Of a DNA stretch of 64,000 bases, positions 16,311 to 61,370 are shown piece by piece. A program made the translations under genes and the position numbers. The notes beneath the pieces were generated by a model. The model saw only the letters and a list, made by a program, of their open reading frames with translations, was not told the origin of the DNA and searched no databases. Position 1 is the first letter of the stretch. Every line of letters begins with the position of its first letter. The DNA comes from Candidatus Omnitrophota bacterium (lineage in GTDB: Bacteria; Omnitrophota; Gorgyraeia; Gygaellales; Profunditerraquicolaceae): the NCBI GenBank assembly GCA_041663665.1, contig JBAYMG010000001.1, forward strand, positions 1,482 to 65,481, written 5' to 3'.

Positions 16311-17138
16311 ATGAAGGATACCAATATGAACCAATTAAATCAGCAAAATTGTGAAGAAATAGAGATCGATTTAAGGGAATATATAAATGTAATTATTAAG
16401 CACAAAGCTATAATTATAACCACATTCTTCTTATCAATTATTGTTGCTTTTATTCTTAGTTTTTTAAGCCCAAAAGTTTTCGAAACGCATGCCATTATAA
16501 GGCTTGGCAGCATTTCTACAGTATTAATCTCAAAACCTAATGCAATGGCAGAATTGCAGGGCCAAGGATTAATGAATTTAGTCTTGAAGGAAAACAATTT
16601 AAATAATGATAAGGGAGAATTTAGCTCAAAAAAAATATTAAAAGTAGAGGATACTAAAGATACAGAATTTCTTAAAATTACAGTAAGAAATTCTAGTCCT
16701 ATCTTATCCGAGACTATTTGTAATGCCATCGCCAGTAAGTTTGTTTCCGAAAAGAAAGAATTATTTAAGAAGAATATTTTATTTCTAAATGAGCAAATTA
16801 ATGAATTCCAAAAAAGATATCAAATAGTTGTAACCGAGATAGATAATTTTAATAAGAAAATATTAGATTTTACAGTGAATCCCAACTATCCTTTACTTCA
16901 GAATACTATAACTAATTATGAAAGTATTTGTTTTAGTTTAAGAGAAAGAGTCTTCTCACTTAAAGAACAAGAACTTAAATCTCAAGATTTTGAAGTCTTT
17001 GAGCCTGCAGTTATTCCAGGATTTGCTATAAAGCCAAGTGTGCGTAAAAATGTTGCTGTAGCCGGAGCGATTGGGTTAATTTTTAGTTTGTTTTTGGTTT
17101 TTATTATTGAATATTGGAGAAAACTAAATCAAAAATGA
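16311..17138 (+). CDS. wzz: polysaccharide chain-length determinant (Wzz/PCP family)
   Basis: TM helices at the N- and C-termini bracket a coiled-coil-rich periplasmic domain. The 3' end overlaps gmd (ATGA). Confidence 0.6.
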
Positions 17139-18277
17139 AAAAAGCTCTCATTACCGGTATAACTGGCCAAGATGGCTCATATTTAGCAGAATTTTTACTT
17201 TCTAAAGGCTATGAAGTTCATGGGATAAGACGGCGTGCCAGTACTTTTAATACTGGGCGAATCGATCATATATATGTGGATCCTCATGATCCTAACGCCA
17301 AGCTTTTTCTTCATTTTGGTGATTTATCCGATGCCGAACAAATTAATGATTTAGTTTACAATATCAAGCCGGATGAAATTTATCATTTAGCTGCCCAGTC
17401 TCATGTGCGTGTGAGTTTTGATATTCCTGAATATACCGGTAATGTTACAGCTCTGGGTACTGTTCGTATTTTGGAAGCCATCCGTCGTAGCGGACACAAA
17501 ATAAAATTCTATCAAGCGTCCAGCAGTGAAATGTTTGGCGCAGCTCCTGCTTCGCAATCCGAAGCTACTGCTTTTCAACCACAAAGCCCGTATGCTTGCG
17601 CAAAAGTTTATGCCTATTGGATGGTAAAAAACTATCGCGAAGGTTATGGGCTTTTTGCTTGCAATGGCATTCTTTTTAATCATGAAAGCCCCCGCAGAGG
17701 TGAGACGTTCGTTACAAGAAAAATTACTCGTGGCCTGGCTGGTATAATTTCTGGTAAGCAAAAGAAACTTTATCTAGGTAACTTAGAGGCAAAACGCGAT
17801 TGGGGTTTTGCTCCAGAGTATGTCGAGATGATGTGGTTAATGCTTCAACAGAATAAACCCGATGATTATGTTGTTGGCACGGAGGAAACTCACTCGGTTA
17901 AGGAATTTGTTCAAAAAACTTTTGAATATGCAGGAATAAAAATCTCTTGGCAAGGTAAGGGTGTTGAAACCAGAGGGATTATTGAGTCTTTGAGTTTACA
18001 TCTGCAAAGATCTGCATTTTTAAAAAAAGGAGATACTGTCATTGAAGTTGATCAGCGATATTTTAGGCCTAATGAAGTAGATTGTTTGTGCGCAGATATC
18101 GCTAAAGCGAAAAAGCAGCTTCATTGGCAACCAAAAGTTAAATTTGATAGCCTGGTTAAAATTATGGTTGATTATGATTTAAGTGCTGCCGGGATTGAGC
18201 CCCCAGGTGAAGGGGTTAAAATTTATAAACAAAAAGAATTTAGTTTTTTATCAGAAGATTTTTGTGTTAAAGGGTAG
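17135..18277 (+). CDS. gmd: GDP-mannose 4,6-dehydratase
   Basis: [37 protein letters not shown] and [20 protein letters not shown] are canonical Gmd motifs. Confidence 0.9.
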
Positions 18278-20505: not shown

Positions 20506-20507
20506 GA

Positions 20508-21485: not shown

Positions 21486-21490
21486 GTGTT

Positions 21491-22663: not shown

Positions 22664-22667
22664 TACT

Positions 22668-23726: not shown

Positions 23727-23735
23727 GCTAATTTT

Positions 23736-27313: not shown

Positions 27314-28251
27314 TGAAAATATTGCTTGTCGGCTGTGGGTCTATTGGTAGAAGACATCTAGAAAACTTAAATCAACTATCTGAAGTCAGCCAGATATTTG
27401 TTTATTCTAAAGTTAAGCATTGCTTAGATTGCCTAGAAGATAAGCATAAAGTTTCAATGGTAAAGTCTTTGAATGCTATTCAGCCCGATGTAGCTATTAT
27501 TGCTAATGAGACTAATAGGCACATAAATACAGCGGTAATTTTAGCAAAAAAAGGAATTCATTTATTTGTCGAAAAGCCGCTTGCGCATAATTTATCCGGC
27601 AAGCTTGAGCTGTTAAAAAAAATTATTAAATTAAAAAAAATAAAGCTTGGGGTTGGATATAATTTAAGATTTTTGGGAGCGTTTGAATTTATTAAAACCA
27701 AACTTTCTCAAGGTGCTATCGGCAAAATATATTTTGCCAAGATCGAAGTTGGACAGTATCTACCTTTTTGGAGAAGTAAATGTGATTATAGCATTTCTTA
27801 TAGCGCTTCAAAAAAACGCGGTGGAGGCGTGGCTTTAGATTTATCGCATGAAATAGATTATATGCGTTTTCTTTTTGGCGACCCTAATTCATGTAAAGTA
27901 GCCAAAGCTAAAGTGAGCAGTCTAAAAATTGATTCAGAGGACGTATTCGAAGGAATTTACGTTTACGATAATTTTATCTGCAATGTCCATATGGATTATT
28001 TGCAGAAAAACAAAAAAAGAGTTATCAGAATAGAAGGTGAAAAGGGGGAGCTTATTTGCGATCTAATCAATAAGAAAATAGTAATAGATGTTTTAGGTAA
28101 GAAAACGATAGTTTCTGATAAAAAACTTTTTGATCTGGATAAAACGTACAAAGATGAAATCTTTAGTTTTATAAAATCAGTAAAATTTAATCGTAAGCCA
28201 GCAGTTACTTTTGAAGACGGAGTAAAAGTGCTCAAGCTTATTGAGGCTTAA
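27313..28251 (+). CDS. Gfo/Idh/MocA-family oxidoreductase (PtmF-like)
   Basis: KILLVGCGSIGRRHL Rossmann N-terminus followed by a GFO_IDH_MocA C-terminal domain. Confidence 0.5.
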   Translation: MKILLVGCGSIGRRHLENLNQLSEVSQIFVYSKVKHCLDCLEDKHKVSMVKSLNAIQPDVAIIANETNRHINTAVILAKKGIHLFVEKPLAHNLSGKLELLKKIIKLKKIKLGVGYNLRFLGAFEFIKTKLSQGAIGKIYFAKIEVGQYLPFWRSKCDYSISYSASKKRGGGVALDLSHEIDYMRFLFGDPNSCKVAKAKVSSLKIDSEDVFEGIYVYDNFICNVHMDYLQKNKKRVIRIEGEKGELICDLINKKIVIDVLGKKTIVSDKKLFDLDKTYKDEIFSFIKSVKFNRKPAVTFEDGVKVLKLIEA

Positions 28252-28252
28252 A

Positions 28253-28969
28253 ATGTATAAAAATAAAAAAATAGTTTGTATTATTCCGGCTAGAGGCGGA
28301 TCAAAAGGTTTGCCCGGCAAAAATATTAAAATGCTTCTTGGTAAGCCGTTGATTGCTTATAGCATCCGGCAGGCTAAGCAATCTGAGTTGATTGATAGAG
28401 TTATCGTTTCTACGGATGATAAAAAGATTGCGAAAATATCAGAAAAGTATGGTGCTGAAGTTCCTTTTATCAGGCCGAAGTCTTTAGCACAAGATAAAAG
28501 CAGCACAATGGATGTTTTATTGCATGCTATGGAGTGGCTTAAGAAAGATAACTATTCGTTTGATGTCCTGGTTTTATTGCATGCAACAGCACCATTAAGA
28601 TTGGTAGGAGATATTAATAATAGTATTAAATTGTTATTCAATAAGAATGTGTCCAATGTTTTTTCTGTTACCGAGGCGCATAGGAATCCTTATTTTAATA
28701 TGGTGGAAGTAAAACGGGGTAGAGTCAAGCTTGTTAAAAAAAGCTGTTTTACCGCCAGGCAAGCAGCACCCGAGGTTTATGATATGAATGCTTCAATATA
28801 CGTCTGGTGGAAGGATGTTTTAATAAAAGGGAAAGGGGTATTCTTAAGCAACAGCCGTATCTATGTTATGCCCAAGAGAAGATCTATTGATATTGATGAT
28901 TATATAGATTTCAGAGTAGCGGAAATACTAATGATTGAACAAAGCATAATAAGGAGAAATAAAAAATGA
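28253..28969 (+). CDS. legF: CMP-nonulosonic acid synthetase (acylneuraminate cytidylyltransferase family, LegF-like)
   Basis: IVCIIPARGGSKGLPGKNIK is the CMP-NeuAc synthetase P-loop. Confidence 0.8.
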   Translation: MYKNKKIVCIIPARGGSKGLPGKNIKMLLGKPLIAYSIRQAKQSELIDRVIVSTDDKKIAKISEKYGAEVPFIRPKSLAQDKSSTMDVLLHAMEWLKKDNYSFDVLVLLHATAPLRLVGDINNSIKLLFNKNVSNVFSVTEAHRNPYFNMVEVKRGRVKLVKKSCFTARQAAPEVYDMNASIYVWWKDVLIKGKGVFLSNSRIYVMPKRRSIDIDDYIDFRVAEILMIEQSIIRRNKK

Positions 28970-29865
28970 AACAAATTCTTAAGGATACAATCCGCCGGAT
29001 ATTTCACATATTTGGTGTTCATCTGTCCCGCTACCCGTTAAAACACAAAACACCTGTTCTTAATAACGTTTTTGGTCATACAGTATTCCAAAATACCCAA
29101 GATATTGGTACAGCCTATGGACGACTCGCTAATGTCGATATTCATGGCCTCGGCAAACTTTGGGAAGACGGCGAAATCAACTTTATTGTCAACGCAGTCA
29201 AGCAGGGAAATACTGTAATTGATATCGGTGCCAACATCGGTATAGTTACGCTCCTATTGGCGAAATTAGTTGGACCAAAAGGGCGCGTGGTGTCATTTGA
29301 ACCAGGGCCGATGAGTTTTGCTTTGTTGACCACAAATGTTCTTGTTAACAACTATAAAAACATCACACTTGTGAATAACGCAGTATCTTCTATAAGTGGT
29401 ACGGAACAACTCTTTATCTGTCCTAGTGGCGAGAGCGACAATCAAGTATCTAAATTGCCTTTGGATTGGGAAGAAGACCGAATCAGTATTCCCTGTCACA
29501 CAGTTAGTTTGGATGATTACTTCAGCAGGGGGGGCAATGATGGAGCAATTGATTTTATCAAGATAGACACGCAAGGGGGAGAGTACAAAGCGTTATTGGG
29601 TATGAAAAATCTTCTTGCCAGGAATAAGAACATCCGGCTGACAGTTGAATATGCGTCATATCTTCCTCTGTGGTTGGAATCAGAAAAGCATGAATTTTTT
29701 GACTTAGTGCGTTCGTTAGGATTTTATATATACGATCTTAAATCTGTAACTCCAAAACTGGTAAGCGAAAAGGATCTTCTGGAAATGTATCCTCGCAACA
29801 CCTATAGATCCACAGGATCCGGTCTATGTACGACTTTGCTTTTGCAAAGAGATAGAAACATCTGA
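28966..29865 (+). CDS. FkbM-family SAM-dependent methyltransferase
   Basis: IDIGANIGIVTLLLAKLVGPKGRVVSFEP is FkbM motif I. Local GC rises from this gene onward. Confidence 0.65.
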   Translation: MKQILKDTIRRIFHIFGVHLSRYPLKHKTPVLNNVFGHTVFQNTQDIGTAYGRLANVDIHGLGKLWEDGEINFIVNAVKQGNTVIDIGANIGIVTLLLAKLVGPKGRVVSFEPGPMSFALLTTNVLVNNYKNITLVNNAVSSISGTEQLFICPSGESDNQVSKLPLDWEEDRISIPCHTVSLDDYFSRGGNDGAIDFIKIDTQGGEYKALLGMKNLLARNKNIRLTVEYASYLPLWLESEKHEFFDLVRSLGFYIYDLKSVTPKLVSEKDLLEMYPRNTYRSTGSGLCTTLLLQRDRNI

Positions 29866-29985
29866 CCCAGTGCAAATATTTTCTCCCTTACCTGGAAGTA
29901 TATAGGGAGATAATATCTGACACACAAGAGGTCTATTTTGGGCATAGAGATATTGATTTTAAGTAGCAGAAATGTTGATTAAAAG

Positions 29986-30843
29986 ATGACTAAAAATATA
30001 CGAATCATCCCTAGGCTTGATATTAAAGGGCCTAACCTTGTTAAAGGTATTCATTTAGAAGGATTACGTGTTCTTGGTAAACCGGAAGATTTTGCCAGGT
30101 TCTACTATGAAAATGGGGCCGATGAGCTTATTTATATGGACGTTGTTGCTAGTTTATATAATCGAAACAGCTTGCACGATATAATTAATAAAACCGCGCA
30201 GGAAATTTTTATTCCTTTGACAGTTGGGGGAGGGTTAAGAACCATAGAAGATATTCGTAGCGTTTTGCGGGCTGGTGCGGATAAGGTTTCTTTGAATACT
30301 GCGGCTATTAGAAATCCTAACTTTATTCATGAGGCATCGCGTATATTCGGCTCTTCCACAATTATTGTTACTATTGAAGCAATTAAGCAGCCTAACGGAG
30401 AATATTTTGCATATATTGATAATGGCAGGGAATATACGGGGATAGAAGTTTCTTTCTGGGCAAAACAGGTAGAGCAGTTAGGAGCTGGTGAAATATTGTT
30501 GACATCTGTAGATCGTGATGGAACAGGAGCAGGATACGATCTTGATCTGGTGAAAACCGTATCCGAATTAGTATCTATTCCCGTGATTGCCTCCGGCGGA
30601 CCAGGAAAAATTGAGGATATTAAACAAGTCGTAACCGAAGGCTATGCTGATGCTGTGGCAATCGCCTCTATGTTGCATTATGATGCTATCAAGTACTTAG
30701 AATCTAATTTAGATTCGTTTGTCGAAGGGAATGTCGAATTTCTTAAGAGCGGCCGTATTCTTACTAAATTTGAGCCTGTATCGCTACCGAGTATAAAAAA
30801 ATATCTTGTTAATCAAGGTGTTCAATGCCGTTTCGCTAATTGA
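29986..30843 (+). CDS. HisF-like cyclase subunit (WbuZ-type) for acetamidino-sugar synthesis
   Basis: (beta/alpha)8 HisF motifs ([18 protein letters not shown]) found in a glycan locus next to HisH-like and amidotransferase genes. Confidence 0.75.
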
Positions 30844-30847
30844 AATA

Positions 30848-31543
30848 ATGCTTATGTTTAATTTAGATGAGAATCAGGTAGCGATTATTGATTATGGCAT
30901 GGGTAATTTGTTTAATGTTCAACGAGCTTGTGCCAAGGTTGGATTACGCAGCGTTATTACCGCGGATAAGAATGTTATTATGCAATCAAACGGCGTAATT
31001 CTTCCCGGGGTAGGAGCATTCGGAGATGCCATTGCTAATCTAAAACGATTGGATTTGATTGGTTTAATAAGAGAGCAGATTAGCCGGAACATACCTTTTT
31101 TGGGGGTTTGTCTGGGAATGCAATTATTAATGACTGAAAGTGAAGAATTCGGCGGGCATAAAGGTTTTGATATTATCAGGGGCAGAGTTGTTAAGTTTAA
31201 TAACTCTGATCAGAGAAATCCAATGATTAAAGTTCCTCATGTTGGCTGGAATCGGATACTTTTTAAAAAAAATCAATCTATGAATTTAGGCGATTCTGTT
31301 TTGCAGGATATATCTAATGGTGAGTATATGTATTTCGTGCATTCCTATTATCCTGTACCTGAGGATGACGCGGTTACTGTTACGACGACCTGTTATGAAG
31401 GCATTGAATACTGTTCATCGTTATCTAGGGGGTCGGTTTTTGCTGTGCAGTTTCATCCTGAAAAAAGCGGATTAGAAGGTCTTAAGGTCTATGAGAATTG
31501 GGCAAATAAGGTGAATCAATATGAGGAGTTGAAACACAAATGA
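30848..31543 (+). CDS. HisH-like glutamine amidotransferase subunit (WbuY-type)
   Basis: Class I GATase with the GVCLGMQ catalytic Cys and a His-Glu pair (FHPEKS). Confidence 0.75.
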   Translation: MLMFNLDENQVAIIDYGMGNLFNVQRACAKVGLRSVITADKNVIMQSNGVILPGVGAFGDAIANLKRLDLIGLIREQISRNIPFLGVCLGMQLLMTESEEFGGHKGFDIIRGRVVKFNNSDQRNPMIKVPHVGWNRILFKKNQSMNLGDSVLQDISNGEYMYFVHSYYPVPEDDAVTVTTTCYEGIEYCSSLSRGSVFAVQFHPEKSGLEGLKVYENWANKVNQYEELKHK

Positions 31544-32760
31544 GCGAAAAATTAGAAGTTAAGTATGGATTGCCGGAAGAAGTCAGGTTTTGTAACCGTT
31601 GTGTTATGTCCAATCAAAGGCCTTCTTCTGCTGTAGAATTTAAACATACAATAAATAGCAAAAAAAATACGCTAAATATCGGAAAAGATGGTGTATGCGA
31701 TGCATGCATGCAGGCAGAAAAAAAAGAAAAAATTGATTGGAAAAAGAGGGAAGAGGAACTTGTTCAATTATTGGATAAACATCGGCGTAACGACGGTTAC
31801 TACGATTGCATTGTCCCTGGAAGCGGCGGTAAAGATAGCGCCTTTCAATCACACATTTTAAAATATAAATATGGGATGCATCCCCTGACAGTAACTTGGC
31901 CGCCAATCATTTATACGGATTATGGATATAAAAATTTTAGGAAATGGATTGAAGTTGGCGGGTTTGACAATTTAAGTTTTAATCAAAATGGGCGGGTTAT
32001 GAAGTTATTAACTCGTTTATCTATTGAAAATTTACTACATCCATTTCAAACGTTCATTTTAGGGCAAAAGAATCTGGGGCCGAAGGTTGCTTTGAAATAT
32101 GATATTCCTTTAATTTTTTACGGTGAAAATGAGGCAGAATACGGAAATCCGATTGCGGATAATGCGACATCGCTGCGTGATAAATCATATTATAGTATGA
32201 AGAATATTGATGAAATGTATCTGGGGGGTGTTTCTGTTAGGGAGCTAAGAGATAAGTATGATATTGATTTAATTGATTTAATGACATATTTGCCTGCGCC
32301 GCATGAACAGTTGGAGAAATCCAAGATTGAAGTACATTATCTTGGCTATTATTTAAAATGGACACCGCAGGAAGTTTATTATTATGCTGTTGAAAATACC
32401 GGTTTTGAAGCTAGGCCGTTTAGAACTCAGGGCACTTACAGTAAATATAATAGCATCGATGACAAAATTGACGATCTCCATTATTATACAACATTTATTA
32501 AGTTTGGTATTGGGCGGGCTACTTATGATGCTTCTCAAGAGATAAGAAATAAGCATCTGACGCGTGAGGAAGGTGTCGCTCTGGTAAAGAAATTTGACGG
32601 AGAGTTTCCGGATAAATATTTTAAAGAAATTATGGATTACATTAGCATCGATCCTAATTATTTTATAGAGCTTTGTGATAAGTTCCGGTCGCCGCATTTA
32701 TGGAAGGAAGAAAACGGTGAATGGAAATTAAGGCATGCAGTTTGGCATGATCAGATCTAA
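31540..32760 (+). CDS. N-acetyl sugar amidotransferase (LfnA/WbuX/PseA-type PP-loop ATP pyrophosphatase)
   Basis: PP-loop SGGKDS (VPGSGGKDSAF). The gene follows the hisH/hisF-like pair exactly as in acetamidino-sugar clusters. Confidence 0.7.
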   Translation: MSEKLEVKYGLPEEVRFCNRCVMSNQRPSSAVEFKHTINSKKNTLNIGKDGVCDACMQAEKKEKIDWKKREEELVQLLDKHRRNDGYYDCIVPGSGGKDSAFQSHILKYKYGMHPLTVTWPPIIYTDYGYKNFRKWIEVGGFDNLSFNQNGRVMKLLTRLSIENLLHPFQTFILGQKNLGPKVALKYDIPLIFYGENEAEYGNPIADNATSLRDKSYYSMKNIDEMYLGGVSVRELRDKYDIDLIDLMTYLPAPHEQLEKSKIEVHYLGYYLKWTPQEVYYYAVENTGFEARPFRTQGTYSKYNSIDDKIDDLHYYTTFIKFGIGRATYDASQEIRNKHLTREEGVALVKKFDGEFPDKYFKEIMDYISIDPNYFIELCDKFRSPHLWKEENGEWKLRHAVWHDQI

Positions 32761-33618: not shown

Positions 33619-33649
33619 CTAAGATTTTTTCCTATTGGAGGTTTATTTA

Positions 33650-34831
33650 ATGATTCCTTTGATGAAAAGCGCTTTTTTTAATGAACGGGATACAAAAAAA
33701 GCGTTATCAAAATTAATTTTAAAAGCAAAACGTTTAAGCATGGGGGAACAGGTTGAAGCTTTTGAGGAGGAATTCGCTTTGTTTCAAGGCGCAAAGAATG
33801 CAATCCTCGTGAACAGCGGAGGAAGTGCTAATCTTGCCATGCTCCAGGTGCTTAAAAATCTTGGCCGGCTGAAAGATGGGGATAAAATTGGTTTTTCTGC
33901 GTTAACTTGGTCTACAAATGTTATGCCTATTCTACAGCTTGGAATGCAACCAGTACCTGTTGATTGCGATAGAAATACTCTCAACGCCATGGCATATCAG
34001 CTTAAACACCGGCTTAATAAGACAGATCTTAAGGCGTTTTTTATTACCAATGCACTTGGTTTTTCCGGCGATCTTGATAAAATTCGTGAGATTTGTAATG
34101 AATCTAAGATTATTCTTATTGAAGATAATTGTGAGGCATTGGGAACGGAATTACCTTCCGGTAAAACCGGTAGTTTTGGGCTAATGTCGTCTTTTTCCTT
34201 ATTTGTCGCGCATCATATGTCCACTATTGAAGGTGGAATAATCTGTAGTAGTGACGGAGATATCGAAGAAATGCTTAAGATTGTTCGAGCTAATGGGTGG
34301 GATCGGAATTTAAAAAAATATCAACAACTTAAGTGGCGCAAAAAACATTGTATTGATTCCGAATTCGAGTCTAAGTATACTTTCTACGATCTTGGTTACA
34401 ATATACGGCCAACAGAAATAACAGGGTTTCTTGGACGTAATCAACTTAAATATCTAAAGCGGAATATAGTGATAAGGGAGAAAAATTATTTAACTTTGGA
34501 AGCCTGTGTGCAGGATAACGCTGATCTAATAAAACTCGACAGATCGCATATTTCACTGCTTTCAAGTTTTGCGTTCCCTGTTCTATGTAAGTCGCCTAAA
34601 CTGAAAAGCAGATATATGGACCGGTTTTTTAGGGCGGGAGTCGAGATCCGCCCTATGATCGCCGGCAACATCCAAAGGCAGCCTTTTTATAAAAAATATG
34701 TAGCAACTTTCTACGAACTTCCGGATACTGATTTCATCAATGAATGCGGATTCTACTGCGGTAATTATCCCGAATTAAGCAAGCCGGATATTAAAACCAT
34801 AATCGGCTGTCTTAGGGGGGATCGATCATGA
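33650..34831 (+). CDS. PMP-dependent nucleotide-sugar 3-dehydratase (ColD / E1-DdhC family)
   Basis: DegT fold in which the Schiff-base Lys is replaced by His (SFSLFVAHHMSTIEGG). LIEDNCEALG and RANGWDRNL match ColD-type dehydratases. Confidence 0.7.
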   Translation: MIPLMKSAFFNERDTKKALSKLILKAKRLSMGEQVEAFEEEFALFQGAKNAILVNSGGSANLAMLQVLKNLGRLKDGDKIGFSALTWSTNVMPILQLGMQPVPVDCDRNTLNAMAYQLKHRLNKTDLKAFFITNALGFSGDLDKIREICNESKIILIEDNCEALGTELPSGKTGSFGLMSSFSLFVAHHMSTIEGGIICSSDGDIEEMLKIVRANGWDRNLKKYQQLKWRKKHCIDSEFESKYTFYDLGYNIRPTEITGFLGRNQLKYLKRNIVIREKNYLTLEACVQDNADLIKLDRSHISLLSSFAFPVLCKSPKLKSRYMDRFFRAGVEIRPMIAGNIQRQPFYKKYVATFYELPDTDFINECGFYCGNYPELSKPDIKTIIGCLRGDRS

Positions 34832-35637
34832 TCATCGTTAGATTGATAGGGGGGCTCGGGAATCAACTGTTTCAGTATGCCGCCGCGCGGCAGTTATCTA
34901 AAATTCATCAAACAGGGCTAAAGATCGATATTTCGGGATTTAAAGAATATAAAAACCATAGATATTCGTTGACGCACTTTAGTATAATCGAAGATTATAT
35001 TTCTAAAGAAGAGACTTTCGGGATCGAAGAAATAAAGGCAAAATATTTTCATTTCGATCCTGAATTTAGGGAAATACCAGATAATATTATTTTAACTGGT
35101 TATTGGCAGACAGAAAAATATTTTATCGGAATATCGGAAATTATCAGAGATGAGTTTACTGTGAAGTATCCATTGAAGGATAAAGATCTTGAAATCTCCC
35201 GATTGATCAAAGATTCTAATTCTGTCAGTATGCACATCCGGCGCTGTGATTATCTCCCTGGCACGTTCAAAGATCAAATTTTCGATTGTTTAAGCCCGGA
35301 TTATTATATTAATGCGGTTAAACGCTTATCCGAAGAAGAGAGTAATTTAGTGTTTTTCATATTTAGCGACGATCCGGAATGGTCCAAAGACAATATTAAA
35401 TTAGAATATCCATGTATATTTGTAGAACATAATACAGCTGATACAAATTATGAAGATCTTCGTTTAATGAGCCTGTGTAAGCATAGTATCATCGCTAACA
35501 GTTCCTTCGGTTGGTGGGGAGCCTGGTTAAATAAAAACCAAAATAAAAAAGTTTATGCCCCGAAAAGATGGTTTAATTCTAATGTCAGGAATTTAGACCC
35601 AAAAGATATCATACCTTCTGCCTGGATTAAGATATGA
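34828..35637 (+). CDS. GT11-family alpha-1,2-fucosyl(-like) transferase
   Basis: N-terminal MIIVRLIGGLGNQLFQYAAA is the GT11 signature. Confidence 0.7.
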   Translation: MIIVRLIGGLGNQLFQYAAARQLSKIHQTGLKIDISGFKEYKNHRYSLTHFSIIEDYISKEETFGIEEIKAKYFHFDPEFREIPDNIILTGYWQTEKYFIGISEIIRDEFTVKYPLKDKDLEISRLIKDSNSVSMHIRRCDYLPGTFKDQIFDCLSPDYYINAVKRLSEEESNLVFFIFSDDPEWSKDNIKLEYPCIFVEHNTADTNYEDLRLMSLCKHSIIANSSFGWWGAWLNKNQNKKVYAPKRWFNSNVRNLDPKDIIPSAWIKI

Positions 35638-37631
35638 AAAAAAAGTATAAAGATAAAGAACCTCTAAAGAAAATCAAAATTCAGGCAGTGCAATTTAATA
35701 ATTCGTACGATAAGAATGTGTTTATTCCCTATAGTGTGGGTGTATTGCAGGCTTTCAGCCAGAAGTACCGGCGGATCAAGGAGCATTTTGAGTTTTTGCC
35801 GTATTTATACCGACGGGGAGCTGTTGAGGAACTTGCGAAAAAAGCCAGTGGTGCGGATATCCTGTGCGTTTCTTGCTATATGTGGAACTGGAAATTGAAT
35901 ATGGCTTTACTCGCACGGGTCCGCCGGCTCAATGAACGCTGCCTTATTATTGTCGGTGGCCCCCAGGTCCCGGACGAAGCGGAGAACTTGTTTAAAGAAC
36001 ACTCGGAGATAGATATTGCTATTCATGGTGAGGGTGAGGAAACATTTCATGAGATCCTCAATACGTATCTTCAGAGGGGGGATTTTCGCGGAGTCAAGGG
36101 GATGTCTTACCATGACCGTCGAACCGGGGAGTTCTTTTATGGAGGAATGCGGCCGGAGATAGCTCGGCTTGATGATATTCCGTCTCCGTATCTAACGGGA
36201 GTTTTTGACCGGTTGATGGCCGATGACAAAGCCGATTGGGTTGCTTCCTGGGAAACCAACAGAGGGTGCCCTTTCTCCTGCACGTACTGTTATTGGGGGC
36301 GGCGCTCGCAGACATTACGCAATTTCAGTATGGACCGGTTGTTTGCGGAGATTGAATGGTTTGGTCAGAACGATATCCCTTTGATCTTTGGCTGTGATGC
36401 CAATTTTGGGATATCGAAACGGGATTTGGACCTGGTGAAACGGCTGGCCGGGACCAAGAAAAAACACGGTTATCCGCAAACCTTCAGGGTTTGCAATATG
36501 AAAAACAGCAATGATGTTGTTTTTGACGTCGAAAAAGTACTGCACGAATCCTGTATGTCTAAAGGGACATCGATAAGTTTCCAGAGTCTTTCTCCGAAAG
36601 TCCTGCATAATGTAAAACGTAAGAATATCCGTATAGATTTATTTCATACACTGCAGAAACGTTATATGAAAGCGGGAATGCCGACCTATACGGAAATAAT
36701 CATTGCCTTACCGGGCGAGACTTATGAGACATTCGTTAACGGCATCAATACCTTGCTGGAGAATGGCCAGCATAGCCAACTTCATCTTTATAATTGCACG
36801 ATTCTTGTGAATTCCGAAATGGGACAGGAAAGTTATTTGAAGAAATACGGGATAAAAACAGTCGAAGGCCCTATCTTTCAACAGCATGTGACGCCGGATA
36901 CATCCGTGGATCGCGTAACTGAGTATGAGAAAATCGTTGTGACCACTGATGCCATGTCTTTAGCTGACTGGCGACGAACTTATGAATTTGCCTGGGCCGT
37001 ACTCTGTTTTCATTGTTTGGGCATATTTCAGATGATTTCGGTTCTCATTTATGGGCGATATAGGATTTCTTACCGCGTGTTTTATGAATCATTAGTCATT
37101 TTTGCAAAAAGTAACCCGAAGAGCCTTATTGGCCGGGAACTCATCGCGCTTAACGATATCCTGGACAATGTTCTTAAGGGGATAGGTTTTGATCAATTCC
37201 TGCCGGAGTTCGGCGAAGTGAACTGGCCTTCTGAGGAGGCCACCTTTTTACGATTATCTAATGGTATTGATTTGTTATACGGGGAATGCAGGCAGTTTCT
37301 TAAATCTTTTTTTAAGGCGCAGCATATAAAACCGGATTTAGATATTCTTAACGATCTTTTAAAATATCAAAGGCAGCGGCTAGTGCATTATGACGACGAT
37401 TATAACTCTGATCATGTCTTTGTGCTTAATTTCAATATCGTAGAATACATTAATGCCGTTATGCAAGGAGAGTCCTGCTCTCTACGCCGCGGGAAAAAAT
37501 GGTATCGCATCGTACGTGATCAGAATTTTAATGGCGATAAAAAGCGATTCGCTCGGGAAGCCGTTTGGTATGGTCGCAAAGGCGGGAAATTTTTGTATGC
37601 GGTTTATTCCATTGCGAAACCGGTAAAATAA
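35634..37631 (+). CDS. cobalamin-binding radical SAM enzyme (class B-like), 665 aa, with an uncharacterised ~300-aa C-terminal extension
   Basis: N-terminal B12-binding-like Rossmann region followed by CxxxCxxC (RGCPFSCTYCYWG). It sits in a GC-richer block. Confidence 0.7.
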   Translation: MKKKYKDKEPLKKIKIQAVQFNNSYDKNVFIPYSVGVLQAFSQKYRRIKEHFEFLPYLYRRGAVEELAKKASGADILCVSCYMWNWKLNMALLARVRRLNERCLIIVGGPQVPDEAENLFKEHSEIDIAIHGEGEETFHEILNTYLQRGDFRGVKGMSYHDRRTGEFFYGGMRPEIARLDDIPSPYLTGVFDRLMADDKADWVASWETNRGCPFSCTYCYWGRRSQTLRNFSMDRLFAEIEWFGQNDIPLIFGCDANFGISKRDLDLVKRLAGTKKKHGYPQTFRVCNMKNSNDVVFDVEKVLHESCMSKGTSISFQSLSPKVLHNVKRKNIRIDLFHTLQKRYMKAGMPTYTEIIIALPGETYETFVNGINTLLENGQHSQLHLYNCTILVNSEMGQESYLKKYGIKTVEGPIFQQHVTPDTSVDRVTEYEKIVVTTDAMSLADWRRTYEFAWAVLCFHCLGIFQMISVLIYGRYRISYRVFYESLVIFAKSNPKSLIGRELIALNDILDNVLKGIGFDQFLPEFGEVNWPSEEATFLRLSNGIDLLYGECRQFLKSFFKAQHIKPDLDILNDLLKYQRQRLVHYDDDYNSDHVFVLNFNIVEYINAVMQGESCSLRRGKKWYRIVRDQNFNGDKKRFAREAVWYGRKGGKFLYAVYSIAKPVK

Positions 37632-37651
37632 CTTTAGCTAGCGGTAGGTAT

Positions 37652-38692
37652 ATGATGAAAAGTAAGCTTAGATGGGGGATTCTTGGTACAGGGAATATCG
37701 CTCGAATCTTTGCTAAAGGTATAGCTGATTCCAGTACTGGTCAGCTTTTTGCGGTTGCCAGCCGGAATTTATCTGATGCTCAAAAATTTGGTGAAGAGTT
37801 TGACGTGCCGGTCCAATATGGCAGTTACGAGGCTCTCATCGCGGATCCCAGAGTTCAGGTAGTCCATATTGCGCTTCCGCATGTTTTTCATGCTGAATGG
37901 GCTATCCGTTCCGCCTATGCAGGAAAACATATCCTTTGTGAGAAGCCTCTCGCTATAAATTATGCTGAGGCCAAAACAATTATCGATGCAGCCAGTCGTA
38001 ATGATGTTTTTTTAATGGAAGCTCTTATGTACCGCTGCCATCCTCAAACCGTGAAGCTTATTGAATTGCTTCGTTCCAAAGTGATAGGAGATATTAGAAT
38101 CATTCAGGCCACATTCAGCTTCCAGGCGGATCGAAATTTTAACAACCGTGCATTGAGCAATGATTTTGGGGGCGGAGGCATCTTGGATGTCGGTTGTTAT
38201 CCGGTTTCTATGGCTCGATTAATTGCTGGAATAGCGCTTAACAAAGAATATGCCGAACCAGTTGAGGTCTATGGTGTGGGGCATGTTGGTTCCGAAAACC
38301 TGATAGATGAATGGGCGATTTGTTGTTTAAAGTTTCCTAATGATATTCTTGCCCAAGTCGCTGCAGGCGTATATCTTGCTCAAGAAAATGTCGTGCGTAT
38401 TTTCGGTTCAGAGGGGCATATATTTATTCCTTCGCCGTGGGTTCCGGGAGGGCGTGAGCCGGGAACCACGAGAATTATTGTATACAAACGTAGTGAAAAT
38501 AAACCTCAAGAGTTCATTACCGAAACCGCGATGGGTTTGTATTCGCTTGAAGCGGATATGGTTGCAAATAATATAAAGATGCGCCAGGCTCCTGTAATGA
38601 AATTGGAAGATAGTCTGGGAAACATGAGAGCGCTTGATCGTTGGAGACAATCCGTAGGTGTAGCCTATCCGCGGGATGGGCAGGTGAGGTAA
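37652..38692 (+). CDS. Gfo/Idh/MocA-family NAD(P)-dependent sugar oxidoreductase
   Basis: WGILGTGNIARIFAKG...EKPLA motifs. Confidence 0.7.
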   Translation: MMKSKLRWGILGTGNIARIFAKGIADSSTGQLFAVASRNLSDAQKFGEEFDVPVQYGSYEALIADPRVQVVHIALPHVFHAEWAIRSAYAGKHILCEKPLAINYAEAKTIIDAASRNDVFLMEALMYRCHPQTVKLIELLRSKVIGDIRIIQATFSFQADRNFNNRALSNDFGGGGILDVGCYPVSMARLIAGIALNKEYAEPVEVYGVGHVGSENLIDEWAICCLKFPNDILAQVAAGVYLAQENVVRIFGSEGHIFIPSPWVPGGREPGTTRIIVYKRSENKPQEFITETAMGLYSLEADMVANNIKMRQAPVMKLEDSLGNMRALDRWRQSVGVAYPRDGQVR

Positions 38693-38693
38693 T

Positions 38694-39608
38694 ATGCGCA
38701 TAACTAAGAATAGTGAGCTTGTTTTAACAGCTGAGTTTAAAAAAACTATCGCTAAAATAGTTAATGATTCTTTAGATAAGAATGCAATCGACGGCGCATG
38801 GCTTACTAATGCCGATCGTTTGTGCCGGAAAATTTTAACCTGTGATCCCGGGGATTTCCTGCAATGGGATGTGATCCTTAGAACAATGGTTGTTGGTAAC
38901 GCTAATTTTGTCCGCGATGAGTTAGATTTTCTCCAGGCTCTTCCTGATTGGGAAAGTCGGTGGAAAGACGCCATTGAAGAATCTTCAGTGGGTAATCCAA
39001 CCTATTACGATGAGTTTCCTTCTAGTAGCGGAAATCTAATCCATCTTGCTTACCATCTGGCGCAGTTTGAGAAGAAAACGGGAATAGATATTAACCGCGC
39101 GGGTTTTATTCTCGAATTTGGCGGCGGTTATGGGGGCATGTGCAGGTTAATCCATAAATTGAATTTTAAAGGCAGGTATATTATTTTTGATCTGCCGCCC
39201 TTGTCCGCCTTGCAGCATTTTTTTATTAATATGAATGGTATACCGGTCGGGTATTATAATAAATTTCTGGAAAAAGATTCAAACGGGGTAATTTGTGTGT
39301 CTGATTTTGCGCATTTAGGAGCCGTTGTTTCTGATTATCCGAACATTGATAATGCCGTATTTCTTGCAACCTGGTCGCTGAGCGAGACGCCGATCAGTTT
39401 GCGGCAGTCTATTTTATCTCTGGTAGAACCATTTAAAGCTTTTCTCCTCGCATACCAGGGATATTTCGGTAATATAGACAATTCAGGATTTTTTTTAGAA
39501 TGGGCTGATGCGATGAATGATATTGAATGGCATAGCTGGAAAATCAAACATCTGCCAAATAAATTATACCGGGATAACTATTATCTGATGGGGAAGAGAA
39601 TATGTTGA
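38694..39608 (+). CDS. hypothetical protein, possible SAM-dependent methyltransferase
   Basis: Contains a motif-I-like EFGGGYGGMCRL, but no other confident motifs. Confidence 0.3.
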   Translation: MRITKNSELVLTAEFKKTIAKIVNDSLDKNAIDGAWLTNADRLCRKILTCDPGDFLQWDVILRTMVVGNANFVRDELDFLQALPDWESRWKDAIEESSVGNPTYYDEFPSSSGNLIHLAYHLAQFEKKTGIDINRAGFILEFGGGYGGMCRLIHKLNFKGRYIIFDLPPLSALQHFFINMNGIPVGYYNKFLEKDSNGVICVSDFAHLGAVVSDYPNIDNAVFLATWSLSETPISLRQSILSLVEPFKAFLLAYQGYFGNIDNSGFFLEWADAMNDIEWHSWKIKHLPNKLYRDNYYLMGKRIC

Positions 39609-40561
39609 AAGTGAGGAACCCAATGGATAAAAAAGATCGCGTATACGTTGCTGGCCATAGAGGTATGCTGGGATCAGCGATCGTGCGTTTACTCAAGAAA
39701 AATGGGTTCGAGAATCTTATTTTATGTAGTCATCGGGAACTTGATTTGAGAGATTTTCGTGCGGTTAAAAATTTCTTCGTGGCGCAAAATCCGGAAATAG
39801 TTATTCTTGCAGCAGCACGGGTCGGGGGGATCCAGGCGAACCTTGAGCATCCCGCGGAATTTCTCTATGACAATCTGGCAATCCAGAATAATGTAATACA
39901 GCAATCATTCTTGAATAAAATCAAAAAGTTTTGTTTCGTTGGCAGTTCCTGCATTTACCCGCGTGAATGTCCACAGCCCATGAAAGAACAGTATTTGCTA
40001 ACGGGGTTGTTAGAGCCGACAAATGAGGGGTACGCGCTGGCAAAGATCGCCGGACTGAAGATGGTTGAATATTACCGCAGGCAATACGCTTTTGGCGGAA
40101 TCAGCGTTATGCCCTGTAATTTGTACGGCACCAATGATAGTTTCGACCCTTTGCACTCGCATGTGCTGGCTGCCCTTATCAGGAAATTTGTTAACGCTGT
40201 AGACACAGGAACAGAAAATGTTACCGTTTGGGGTACAGGTTCGGCAAGGCGGGAGTTTATGCATGTAGATGACGCCGCTCAAGCTATTCTTTTTCTGATG
40301 GATAATTATAATGAACCTGAATTCATTAATATCGGCTGGGGCATCGATATTTCGATCCGTGATTTAGTGGAATTTATAGCCCGAAAGACAGGCTATAAAG
40401 GCTCTATAAATTGGGATACCGCAAAGCCCGATGGAATGCCGCGTAAATGCCTGGATGTTTCAAGGTTAAATGCTTTGGGATATACTCCAAAAATATCATT
40501 AGAAGACGGAATAAAGAAGACGATAGAAGAATATAAAACAGTAGCTTTGCCACTAAAGTAA
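39602..40561 (+). CDS. fcl: GDP-L-fucose synthase family enzyme (Fcl / ColC-like 3,5-epimerase-4-reductase)
   Basis: VYVAGHRGMLGSAI, AAARVGGIQAN and VGSSCIYP are Fcl/WcaG family motifs. Confidence 0.7.
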   Translation: MLKVRNPMDKKDRVYVAGHRGMLGSAIVRLLKKNGFENLILCSHRELDLRDFRAVKNFFVAQNPEIVILAAARVGGIQANLEHPAEFLYDNLAIQNNVIQQSFLNKIKKFCFVGSSCIYPRECPQPMKEQYLLTGLLEPTNEGYALAKIAGLKMVEYYRRQYAFGGISVMPCNLYGTNDSFDPLHSHVLAALIRKFVNAVDTGTENVTVWGTGSARREFMHVDDAAQAILFLMDNYNEPEFINIGWGIDISIRDLVEFIARKTGYKGSINWDTAKPDGMPRKCLDVSRLNALGYTPKISLEDGIKKTIEEYKTVALPLK

Positions 40562-60475: not shown

Positions 60476-60476
60476 A

Positions 60477-61364: not shown

Positions 61365-61370
61365 AATACT

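What the first reader, a model, noticed from the sequence alone, without database searches (positions are those of the whole stretch)
35634..37631. Large cobalamin-binding radical SAM enzyme with an unknown C-terminal domain inside the glycan locus
The 665-aa protein has an N-terminal B12-binding-like fold followed by a canonical CxxxCxxC radical SAM core, then about 300 residues with no recognisable motifs. It sits between a GT11 transferase and sugar oxidoreductase/Wzx genes, in a block that is clearly GC-richer than the host. Class B radical SAM enzymes methylate unactivated carbons. Such chemistry on nucleotide sugars in surface glycans is rare, so this is a candidate for a novel sugar C-modification (methylation, epimerisation or rearrangement).
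Basis: partly seen in the sequence, partly recalled or inferred. Interest (0 to 1): 0.7.

Follow-up and report, generated by a model that had tools for sequence, protein, structure and literature searches.

The report
TokK-like B12 radical SAM glycan enzyme
This gene encodes an intact vitamin-B12-dependent radical SAM enzyme with the same three-domain fold as the antibiotic methylases TokK and CysS; it belongs to a large, uncharacterised branch found in bacterial surface-sugar gene clusters, where it probably adds methyl groups to an unreactive carbon of a deoxy-sugar.

Summary
The 665-aa ORF at 35634-37631 (+) is real and intact, and 100% identical to a protein of a Candidatus Omnitrophota MAG. 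It has a B12-binding Rossmann domain, an invariant CxxxCxxC radical SAM core and a conserved C-terminal domain.

That C-terminal domain is not unknown. The AlphaFold model (pLDDT 90.8) superposes over its full length on TokK (TM 0.88) and CysS (TM 0.75), both iterative B12-dependent methylases. Both signature tryptophans are kept (W84, W221).

The enzyme belongs to a distinct clade that I call type A. Its markers are R285, C287, C388, R648-K649 and the motif WYGRKGGKF. TokK's pantetheine-binding loop is missing, and TokK's Tyr652 aligns with an Arg.

Every type A context I looked at except one (L098) carries glycan genes, though no single partner gene is fixed. GDP-6-deoxyhexose genes recur in several phyla: Gmd, a ColD-type 3-dehydratase, Fcl/ColC-like and GT11/GT10. 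Here it is embedded in such a cassette.

Best reading: a methylcobalamin-dependent radical C-methylase acting on a GDP-linked 6-deoxy or 3,6-dideoxy-hexose, or on a substituent of it. The substrate and the chemistry are inferred, not shown. I found no published glycan example. It is a new variant of a known kind, of moderate interest.

The parts
35634..37631 (+). TokK/CysS-fold cobalamin-dependent radical SAM enzyme, 665 aa, 'type A' glycan clade
   Evidence: ORF. 100% identical to an Omnitrophota MAG protein. phmmer hit to TokK at 2.7e-100. Model pLDDT 90.8. TM 0.88 to 7KDY.
35829..36056 (+). Core of the B12-binding Rossmann domain (aa 66-141), including W84, the equivalent of TokK Trp76 under the cobalt
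   Evidence: Pfam PF02310, 35.6 bits. W84 is conserved in 114/114 close relatives and 116/116 TokK-clade sequences. The role of Trp76 is described in the TokK paper.
36255..36740 (+). Radical SAM core (aa 208-369), with R285 at the TokK Arg280 / CysS Trp271 substrate position
   Evidence: Pfam PF04055. Residue mapping from the alignments. Roles of the TokK and CysS residues from the papers.
36267..36290 (+). [4Fe-4S] cluster motif C212-P-F-S-C216-T-Y-C219, followed by W221 (TokK Trp215)
   Evidence: The three Cys are invariant in 304 relatives and W221 in all but three.
36924..37628 (+). C-terminal TokK-type substrate-binding domain (aa 431-665). No Pfam model covers it.
   Evidence: Full-length structural match to TokK and CysS. 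The profile aligns to TokK up to residue 590. On its own the domain finds 490 cluster representatives, always at the C-terminus of B12 radical SAM proteins.
37566..37592 (+). Clade signature motif W645-Y-G-R648-K649-G-G-K-F653. R648 aligns with TokK Tyr652, a substrate contact.
   Evidence: Invariant columns. Clade comparison. Alignment to TokK.
33635..34831 (+). ColD-type PMP-dependent sugar 3-dehydratase (DegT fold, His-His in place of the PLP lysine)
   Evidence: Sequence FVAHHMSTIEGG. Best PDB hit is ColD/WbdK, 2.7e-62. The Lys-to-His hallmark of dehydratases is described in a paper.
34828..35637 (+). GT11-family (fucosyl-type) glycosyltransferase, translationally coupled to the radical SAM gene
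   Evidence: Pfam PF01531, 7e-32. It stays next to the radical SAM gene in L081, L082, L088 and L006.
37652..38692 (+). Gfo/Idh/MocA NAD(P) sugar oxidoreductase. The likely start is the ATG at 37652, not the TTG at 37565.
   Evidence: Pfam. PDB hits include the sugar 3-ketoreductase KijD10, 2e-29.
38694..39608 (+). Putative class I SAM methyltransferase (weakly NanM-like sugar O-methyltransferase)
   Evidence: TIGR04371, 36.9 bits, below the cutoff of 44. Glycine-rich motif ILEFGGGYGG. No PDB hit.
39602..40561 (+). Fcl/ColC-like GDP-4-keto-6-deoxyhexose epimerase/reductase
   Evidence: NF047922 GDP-L-fucose synthase, 430 bits (cutoff 500).
17114..18277 (+). GDP-mannose 4,6-dehydratase (Gmd), which would supply the GDP-4-keto-6-deoxymannose precursor
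   Evidence: TIGR01472, 548 bits, above the cutoff of 415.

Best explanation
The gene encodes a functional three-domain cobalamin-dependent radical SAM enzyme with the TokK/ThnK/CysS fold. It most likely works as those enzymes do. One SAM methylates cob(I)alamin to give methylcobalamin. A second SAM is cleaved at the [4Fe-4S] cluster to give a 5'-deoxyadenosyl radical. That radical abstracts a hydrogen from an unactivated sp3 carbon, and the resulting substrate radical takes the methyl group from methylcobalamin. The cycle may run more than once on the same carbon.

The substrate is not a pantetheinylated metabolite. It is probably an anionic sugar intermediate of this glycan locus. The most likely candidate is a GDP-linked 6-deoxy- or 3,6-dideoxy-hexose (fucose or colitose type). 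That sugar would be made by Gmd, the adjacent ColD-type dehydratase and the Fcl/ColC-like reductase, and then transferred by the translationally coupled GT11.

I propose that R285, R648 and K649 hold the diphosphate or another anionic group. These occupy positions near the TokK carboxylate contacts Arg280 and Tyr652.

Shown here: fold, cofactor motifs, clade membership and genomic association. Inferred: methylation as the chemistry, the identity of the substrate, and the role of the basic residues.
For: Fold and cofactor motifs:
- The full-length match to TokK has TM 0.88 at 30% identity, and to CysS TM 0.75. phmmer gives 2.7e-100 to TokK and the family profile gives 3.4e-154.
- The CxxxCxxC motif is invariant, and W84 and W221 are conserved. 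These correspond to TokK Trp76 and Trp215. The TokK paper says those tryptophans are shared by TokK, ThnK and CysS but not by the other known B12 methylases it aligned.
- A hydrophobic residue under the cobalt is reported to be typical of radical methylases.

Substrate pocket:
- R285 aligns with TokK Arg280 and CysS Trp271, which are substrate-binding or gating residues.
- R648 aligns with TokK Tyr652.
- The 12-residue TokK loop carrying the pantetheine contact Asn515 is absent.

Context in the window:
- Gene order is ColD-like, GT11, radical SAM, Gfo, methyltransferase, Fcl-like. Gmd lies upstream.

Context elsewhere:
- Almost every type A context examined carries glycan genes. L098 is the exception: only one GT2 gene, about 7 kb away.
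- Gmd orthologues (55-60% identity) occur next to type A enzymes in L001 (adjacent), L006, L007 and L085. None occurs in the 41 type B loci.
- In L007 the radical SAM gene lies between Gmd and an Fcl-like gene.
- In the Nomurabacteria locus L006 it lies next to GT11 (44% identity) and a ColD-like gene (61% identity).
- In L083 the order is Fcl-like, a short 54-aa ORF, DegT, radical SAM, GT10.
- In all, 23 of 33 DegT-family neighbours of these enzymes are the His-type dehydratase form.
Against: - There is no biochemical evidence for any member of this clade, and I found no publication.
- Type A enzymes have no fixed partner gene. Only about 7 of roughly 25 independent lineages show GDP-6-deoxyhexose genes within 10 kb, and Fcl-like genes are equally common near the sister clade.
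- L081 keeps the radical SAM gene, GT11 and Gfo but lacks ColD and Fcl. L098 has almost no sugar genes nearby.
- The clade-specific cysteines C287 and C388 point into the predicted active site. A methylase would not need them, so other chemistry is possible.
- Some cobalamin radical SAM enzymes do not methylate at all (OxsB, BchE).
- Residue equivalences in the C-terminal domain rest on an alignment with only about 20% identity.
- My ORF calling in the related loci was crude, so the counts are approximate.
Confidence: 0.5

Rival explanations
1. It has the same fold and cofactors but does not methylate. It would catalyse a radical epimerisation, dehydration, ring contraction or rearrangement of a sugar. 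The clade-specific active-site cysteines C287 and C388 would act as hydrogen-atom donors or as a redox pair.
For: - C287 and C388 are conserved in about 90% of type A sequences. Both are replaced (Q/N and L/F) in the TokK clade and in type B.
- C388 sits at the position of TokK Leu383, next to the substrate.
- Inteins in relatives are inserted exactly at about 385-388, as well as inside the cluster motif. Such insertions typically mark functionally critical sites.
- A Gfo/Idh/MocA oxidoreductase is the conserved downstream neighbour in this lineage.
- Non-methylating cobalamin radical SAM enzymes are known, such as OxsB.
Against: - C388 is replaced by S, L or V, and C287 by S, A or N, in roughly 10% of otherwise typical type A sequences. 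That argues against an essential catalytic thiol.
- The Trp-under-cobalt and Trp215-equivalent pair are features of the radical methylases TokK, ThnK and CysS. OxsB and TsrM have polar residues there instead.
- The nearest characterised relatives are all methylases.
Confidence: 0.2
2. It is a methylase, but it acts on a substituent rather than on a ring carbon. As CysS (shown) and KedN5 (proposed) extend alkoxy groups, it would extend an O-methyl, C-methyl or N-acyl/acetimidoyl group already placed on a sugar by the conventional methyltransferases of the locus, giving ethyl or isopropyl-type groups.
For: - CysS converts methoxy groups to ethoxy, isopropoxy and butoxy groups.
- The best NCBIfam hit is the KedN5 family.
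- The locus is rich in class I methyltransferases (28966, 38694, 43832, 47066, 57188). It also has a TylC3-type sugar C-methyltransferase at 18281-19537, next to Gmd.
- A class I methyltransferase lies directly upstream of type A genes in L084 and L098, and close by in L096 and L097.
Against: - Methyltransferases are not among the recurrent immediate neighbours in the 19 genome-derived type A loci.
- To my knowledge, O-ethyl or O-isopropyl sugars have not been described in bacterial glycans.
- The KedN5 match is far below cutoff (272 versus 700 bits) and does not cover the C-terminal domain.
Confidence: 0.2
3. It acts late, on the lipid-linked oligosaccharide or the finished polymer, not on a nucleotide sugar. 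In that case the neighbouring sugar-nucleotide genes are only bystanders in the same locus.
For: - There is no fixed biosynthetic partner across type A loci.
- The gene is often next to Wzx, Wzy or glycosyltransferase genes (L085, L099 and the P0009 contig).
- In candidate-phyla-radiation (CPR) bacteria it lies next to a small GT2-like gene (L004, L005, L007, L040).
Against: - The protein is predicted to be soluble, with no membrane segment evident in the model.
- It is sandwiched between Gmd and Fcl-like genes in L007 and is adjacent to Gmd in L001.
- The substrate channel of this fold suits small molecules with a tail.
Confidence: 0.1

Closest known systems
TokK / ThnK (carbapenem C6 methylases; PDB 7KDX, 7KDY)
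   Same: - Same three-domain architecture over the full length: TM 0.88, rmsd 2.8 Å, 30% identity.
- Same CxxxCxxC motif.
- Trp under the cobalt (W84 = Trp76) and active-site Trp (W221 = Trp215).
- Arg at the substrate-anchoring strand (R285 = Arg280).
   Different: - Separate clade: about 31% identity overall and about 20% in the C-terminal domain.
- The loop carrying pantetheine-binding Asn515 is deleted.
- Tyr652 aligns with Arg, and Leu383 with Cys.
- Different C-terminal motif (WYGRKGGKF versus G-x-SYP...H-Y-x-H).
- Glycan locus instead of a carbapenem cluster.
CysS (cystobactamid alkoxy-extending methylase; PDB 9N1B)
   Same: - Same fold (TM 0.75-0.80), with a phmmer E-value of 3.8e-55.
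- Same Trp under the cobalt.
- Belongs to the iterative methylase class.
   Different: - Only 22% identity.
- The gating Trp271 is an Arg here.
- The CysS substrate is a pantetheinylated or carrier-bound aminobenzoate. No carrier protein or NRPS genes lie near this gene.
KedN5 family (NCBIfam NF033712)
   Same: Best-scoring NCBIfam model, 272 bits, covering aa 31-412.
   Different: The score is far below the family cutoff of 700, and the C-terminal 220 profile positions do not align.
GenK / GenD1 (gentamicin sugar C-methylases) and Fom3 (a B12 methylase that acts on a cytidylylated substrate)
   Same: These are functional analogies from established knowledge and the gentamicin papers listed. 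They are B12 radical SAM enzymes that methylate unactivated sugar carbons. Fom3 shows that such enzymes can accept a nucleotide-linked substrate.
   Different: They are not the closest relatives by sequence or structure. They act in antibiotic pathways, not surface glycans. I did not test homology to them here.
'Type B' sister clade found here (S285/Q287/L388/N648)
   Same: - Same length and fold family.
- 34% identity.
- A related C-terminal motif (WWGNKKGAY).
- Found in glycan-type loci that also carry ColD/E1-type dehydratases.
   Different: - Has a fixed cassette: an adjacent aldo/keto reductase (24/41 loci), TPP-dependent E1 alpha and beta subunits, a GHMP kinase and a nucleotidyltransferase. 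All of these are absent from the window.
- No Gmd nearby.

Membership tests
Radical SAM superfamily | CxxxCxxC motif that binds the [4Fe-4S] cluster, within a partial TIM barrel | tested here: met
   C212, C216 and C219 are invariant in 304 relatives. Pfam PF04055 scores above cutoff. The barrel superposes on TokK.
Class B (cobalamin-dependent) radical SAM enzymes | N-terminal Rossmann-type cobalamin-binding domain | tested here: met
   PF02310 scores 35.6 bits, above the cutoff of 32.1. The domain superposes on TokK and CysS.
Class B (cobalamin-dependent) radical SAM enzymes | Actually binds and uses cobalamin | not testable with these tools
   This needs purified protein and cofactor analysis.
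TokK/ThnK/CysS structural class of iterative methylases | Three domains, including the large C-terminal substrate-binding domain | tested here: met
   TM 0.88 to 7KDY and 0.75-0.80 to 9N1B over the full length.
TokK/ThnK/CysS structural class of iterative methylases | Trp below the cobalt (Trp76) and Trp beside the cobalamin and substrate (Trp215) | tested here: met
   W84 and W221 are conserved. Their roles are described.
TokK/ThnK/CysS structural class of iterative methylases | Pantetheinylated substrate and the elements that bind it (TokK Asn515 loop, Tyr652) | tested here: not met
   The Asn515 loop is a 12-residue gap here, and Tyr652 aligns with R648. No carrier-protein, NRPS or carbapenem genes were found among the annotated ORFs of the window; small ORFs under 100 aa and the first ~9.6 kb were not annotated.
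TokK/ThnK/CysS structural class of iterative methylases | Sequential methyl transfers to one carbon | not testable with these tools
   This requires enzymology.
NCBIfam NF033712, KedN5 family C-methyltransferase | Whole-protein score of at least 700 bits | tested here: not met
   272 bits, covering only profile positions 16-401 of 624.
   65.3 and 35.8 bits. By contrast, the second radical SAM gene of the window (50493-51932) scores 415 bits to HpnJ.
'Type A' glycan-locus clade (defined here) | Signature R285/C287/E354/Y386/C388/R648/G650 plus the C-terminal motif W-[YF]-G-R-K-G-G-[KR]-[FY] | tested here: met
   The window sequence carries RCEYCRG, identical to 89 of 114 close relatives.

The most novel reading that the evidence does not exclude
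Type A enzymes could be a widespread, unrecognised class of glycan-tailoring enzymes. They would perform TokK-style single or iterative radical methylation on GDP-linked deoxyhexoses. Examples are extending the C6 methyl group or a C-methyl branch to ethyl or isopropyl, or methylating the C3 methylene of a 3,6-dideoxy sugar. The result would be C-alkylated or chain-extended sugars in the surface glycans of Omnitrophota, candidate-phyla-radiation (CPR) bacteria, Planctomycetota, Magnetococcales and others. No biosynthetic route or structural report for such sugars exists yet.
Probability: 0.25. Interest if true: 0.75.

Novelty: new variant of a known kind. Interest (0 to 1): 0.5.

Why it matters
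All structurally characterised enzymes with the TokK fold act on pantetheinylated antibiotic precursors. This work points to a sister clade, represented by hundreds of sequence clusters across many phyla, that sits in surface-glycan loci and has a rebuilt, basic substrate pocket.

If these enzymes methylate nucleotide sugars, three things follow:
- They would define a new route to C-alkylated deoxysugars.
- They would explain unassigned 'radical SAM' genes in O-antigen and capsule loci.
- They would offer new biocatalysts for alkylating unactivated sugar carbons.

The window gives a compact, testable cassette: Gmd, ColD-like, GT11, radical SAM, Gfo, methyltransferase and Fcl-like.

Tried and rejected
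- **Aldo/keto reductase cassette.** Family-wide neighbour clustering on 80 genome loci first suggested a conserved cassette of an aldo/keto reductase, TPP-dependent E1 subunits, a GHMP kinase and a nucleotidyltransferase. Signature-residue analysis showed that this cassette belongs to a sister clade (type B), not to the window's clade. The window has none of those genes.
- **Gfo/Idh/MocA co-occurrence.** It holds only within the same lineage.
- **Fcl-like co-occurrence.** It is not clade-specific.
- **Informative domain fusions.** The longer proteins that carry the C-terminal domain turned out to be intein-bearing versions or a tandem duplicate, not functional fusions.
- **Last 106 residues against the PDB.** No significant hit. 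Homology of that segment to TokK is seen only by structure and by multiple alignment.
- **Metagenome scan for close relatives.** It gave only 10 loci, few of them informative.
- **Literature.** Searches for B12 radical SAM enzymes in O-antigen, capsule, nucleotide-sugar, legionaminic acid or colitose contexts found nothing relevant.
- **Not attempted.** I did not predict a structure for the 304-aa neighbour.
Full report
**1. Observation**

The ORF at 35634-37631 (+) is present exactly as described. It is 665 aa long, and its ATG overlaps the stop of the upstream GT11 gene by 4 bp. Pfam finds a B12-binding domain (aa 66-141) and a Radical_SAM domain (aa 208-369), both above their cutoffs, and nothing after aa ~412.

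The motif C212-PFS-C216-TY-C219 is canonical. In a 304-sequence alignment of relatives the three cysteines are invariant. The protein is 100% identical to a protein annotated from a Candidatus Omnitrophota MAG, on a 280-kb contig.

The GC claim is real but modest. The gene has GC 0.438 and GC3 0.477, the highest GC3 in the window. Genes from 35.6 to 43.7 kb have GC 0.40-0.45, against a median gene GC of 0.38.

**2. The 'unknown' C-terminal domain**

The domain is neither unknown nor motif-free.
- In an alignment of 33 homologues (40-74% identity) it is conserved to the very end, with invariant W645, G647, R648, K649 and G651.
- phmmer against PDB sequences gives TokK at 2.7e-100, aligned over aa 27-510, and CysS at 3.8e-55. 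A family profile extends the TokK alignment to residue 590.
- An AlphaFold2 model built on the alignment is confident (mean pLDDT 90.8, pTM 0.89).
- Foldseek superposes the whole chain on TokK (7KDY: TM 0.88/0.89, rmsd 2.8 Å, 30% identity) and on CysS (9N1B: TM 0.75/0.80). Other B12 radical SAM enzymes (TsrM, OxsB, AprD4, MgmA) match only the first two domains, with TM of about 0.5 or less.
- In TokK this third domain forms part of the substrate channel and contacts the substrate. The same is true in CysS.
- Searched alone against 1.84 billion cluster representatives, aa 430-665 finds 490 proteins at E ≤ 1e-3 and 257 at E ≤ 1e-10. The match is always at the C-terminal end of a B12 radical SAM protein.

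**3. Family position**

The best NCBIfam model is the KedN5 family. It scores 272 bits against a cutoff of 700 and covers only the N-terminal two domains.

I aligned 304 full-length relatives: hits to the window protein, hits to a TokK fragment, and ORFs from 80 genome loci. They split into at least three clades that share about 30-34% identity with one another overall and 15-23% in the C-terminal domain.
- **Type A** (my label; the window's clade). Signature R285/C287/E354/Y386/C388/R648/G650 and motif W-[YF]-G-R-K-G-G-[KR]-[FY]. 89 of 114 close relatives carry exactly this signature.
- **Type B.** Signature S/Q/D/N/L/N/K.
- **TokK clade.** R at 285, Q or N at 287, L or F at 388, Y at 648.

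All three clades keep W84 and W221, the equivalents of TokK Trp76 and Trp215. The TokK paper describes these tryptophans as shared by TokK, ThnK and CysS but not by the other known B12 methylases it aligned. A recent review links a hydrophobic residue under the cobalt with radical methylation.

Mapping of TokK and CysS substrate residues onto the window enzyme:

| TokK / CysS residue | Window enzyme |
|---|---|
| TokK Arg280 (carboxylate anchor) = CysS Trp271 (gate) | R285 |
| TokK Leu383 | C388 |
| TokK Tyr652 | R648 |
| TokK 12-residue loop carrying pantetheine-binding Asn515 | absent |

The pocket is therefore rebuilt. It is more basic, carries two clade-specific cysteines, and lacks the pantetheine-binding element. 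These equivalences in the C-terminal domain rest on a low-identity alignment and could be off by a residue or two.

**4. Local context**

The whole window is one + strand glycan super-locus. In order along the window:

| Coordinates | Assignment |
|---|---|
| 9673-12348 | RmlA, an RmlD-like reductase (weak match, 47 bits vs cutoff 224), RmlB |
| 17114 | Bona fide Gmd (548 bits) |
| 18281 | TylC3-type sugar C-methyltransferase |
| 20502-28969 | Complete legionaminic-acid-type cassette: LegB, an aminotransferase, a PtmE-like gene, an acetyltransferase, NeuB, NeuC-like, an SDR, a Gfo gene and a CMP-transferase |
| 29986-32760 | WbuZ/Y/X-type amidotransferase set |
| 32812 | GT2 |

Then comes the cassette that contains the finding:

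| Coordinates | Assignment |
|---|---|
| 33635 | DegT-fold protein with His-His in place of the PLP lysine (FVAHHMSTIEGG). Its best PDB hit is ColD/WbdK, 2.7e-62, so it is a sugar 3-dehydratase, not an aminotransferase. |
| 34828 | GT11 |
| 35634 | The radical SAM gene |
| 37652 | Gfo/Idh/MocA oxidoreductase (PDB hits include the sugar 3-ketoreductase KijD10) |
| 38694 | Weakly NanM-like class I methyltransferase |
| 39602 | Fcl/ColC-like (430 bits to GDP-fucose synthase) |
| 40562 | Wzx |
| 42080 | BFO_1060-like transferase |

Gmd, ColD and an Fcl-like reductase together make up the GDP-L-colitose (3,6-dideoxy-L-hexose) route. That assignment rests on established knowledge. GT11 enzymes use GDP-fucose-type donors.

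**5. Context elsewhere**

*Close homologues (70-74% identity: L081, L082, L088)* are syntenic. They keep the radical SAM gene, GT11 and Gfo. ColD-like and Fcl-like genes are present in L082 and L088 but absent from L081.

*More distant type A members (34-59% identity)* lie, in all but one context examined (L098), among glycan genes, but without a fixed partner. In L098 the neighbours are mostly unannotated, and only one GT2 gene lies about 7 kb away. GDP-6-deoxyhexose genes are the recurrent theme:
- Gmd orthologues (55-60% identity) lie next to type A genes in L001 (Magnetococcus, adjacent), L006, L007 and L085. None occurs in the 41 type B loci.
- In L007 (Patescibacteria) the radical SAM gene sits between Gmd and an Fcl-like gene.
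- In L006 (Nomurabacteria) it sits next to GT11 (44% identity) and a ColD-like gene (61% identity).
- In L024 and L028 (Planctomycetota) an Fcl-like gene is directly upstream.
- In L083 the order is Fcl-like, a short 54-aa ORF, DegT, radical SAM, GT10.

Across all 99 loci, 23 of 33 DegT-family genes within 10 kb have His at the lysine position, which marks the dehydratase type. Most DegT-family enzymes are aminotransferases, so this proportion is unusual. That background statement comes from general knowledge and was not measured here.

*Negative results:*
- The Gfo/Idh/MocA neighbour is lineage-restricted.
- Fcl-like genes are no more frequent near type A than near type B.
- The striking cassette of an aldo/keto reductase, E1 alpha/beta subunits, a GHMP kinase and a nucleotidyltransferase belongs to type B only.

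**6. Mechanism**

The best-supported reading is a TokK-type ping-pong radical methylation. SAM methylates cob(I)alamin. A second SAM gives the 5'-deoxyadenosyl radical at the cluster. After hydrogen abstraction from an sp3 carbon, the substrate radical takes the methyl group from methylcobalamin (mechanism as described).

Fold, cofactor motifs and clade-level conservation are shown. Methylation itself is inferred from the nearest characterised relatives and the two conserved tryptophans.

The substrate is inferred from context and from the basic pocket. It is most likely a GDP-linked 6-deoxy or 3,6-dideoxy-hexose, or an intermediate of that route. The site of attack is unknown. It could be C6, C3, or an existing methyl branch or O-methyl group.

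Rivals are non-methylating radical chemistry that uses C287 and C388, alkyl extension of a substituent in the manner of CysS, and action on the lipid-linked or polymeric glycan.

**7. Novelty**

Two recent papers were consulted: a 2026 review and the CysS structural paper. In the review, a term search for 'polysaccharide', 'glycan', 'sugar' and 'aminoglycoside' gave no occurrence. The passages of the CysS paper that I read concern a pantetheinylated substrate. Targeted full-text searches also found nothing. That library is incomplete, so absence is not proof.

The enzyme is a new variant of a known kind: known fold and probable chemistry, but a distinct clade, pocket and pathway context. Interest is moderate, because it offers a concrete, testable lead rather than a demonstrated new chemistry.

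Noticed in passing
window 50493-51932 (+): A second B12-binding radical SAM gene (479 aa) lies in the same locus. It is closest to HpnJ (415 bits, cutoff 577.6). A similar second B12 radical SAM gene lies 4.5 kb from the type A gene in L083, and directly upstream of it on the P0009 contig. A possible functional pairing is unexplained.
   Followed up: partly
proteins P0252, P0258, P0263, P0265, P0276, P0278, P0282, P0293, P0308 and others (relatives, not in the window): Many relatives of this family (about 18 of 150 representatives) carry inteins, some with LAGLIDADG endonucleases. The insertion points map to three sites: inside the CxxxCxxC motif (query aa ~216-219), at ~250-256, and at ~385-388, which is the clade-specific Cys388. 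P0263 has two inteins.
   Followed up: partly
loci L011-L080 (41 'type B' loci), e.g. L012:9980-13006: A sister clade of TokK-like enzymes has a conserved cassette: a directly adjacent aldo/keto reductase (24/41 loci), TPP-dependent E1 alpha and beta subunits, a GHMP kinase, a nucleotidyltransferase and ColD/E1-type dehydratases. It looks like a yersiniose- or avilamycin-style branched-chain deoxysugar route with an added radical SAM step. As far as I could find, it is uncharacterised.
   Followed up: partly
L030:1251-11893, also L029, L052, L068: Clostridia-type MAG contigs carry tandem arrays of TokK-like paralogues. L030 has five full-length copies in a row, and seven ORFs in the cluster.
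   Followed up: no
window 18281-19537 (+): A conventional TylC3-type NDP-sugar C-methyltransferase (Methyltransf_13/23/14) sits between Gmd (17114) and a Gmd/Rmd-like reductase (19534). The locus therefore probably already makes a 3-C-methyl-6-deoxyhexose by the classical route.
   Followed up: no
window 20502-32760 (+): A complete legionaminic-acid-type nonulosonate cassette (LegB above cutoff, NeuB, NeuC-like, CMP-transferase and others) is followed by WbuZ/WbuY/WbuX-type amidotransferase genes. This suggests an acetamidino-modified nonulosonic acid in the glycan.
   Followed up: partly
window 57973-62414 (+): Glucose-1-phosphate cytidylyltransferase and a CDP-glucose 4,6-dehydratase-like gene are followed by a metallo-beta-lactamase-fold protein and a DmpF/DmpG-like pair (acetaldehyde dehydrogenase and aldolase). 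This is an unusual set for a glycan locus.
   Followed up: no
window 37565-37651: The mechanical ORF for the Gfo/Idh/MocA gene starts at a TTG that overlaps the radical SAM gene by 67 bp. The Pfam domain begins at residue 35, and an ATG at 37652 is the more likely start.
   Followed up: partly
P0056, P0061 (relatives): A few type A sequences have Ala at position 285 and Arg at position 650 (signature ACEYCRR). This may relocate the pocket arginine as a compensating change.
   Followed up: no
window 1-64000: Nearly all of the roughly 58 long ORFs are on the + strand, with positive GC skew throughout. The window is essentially one very large glycan super-locus, with two Wzy-like genes, one Wzx gene, a Wzz-like gene and an initiating sugar transferase.
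   Followed up: no
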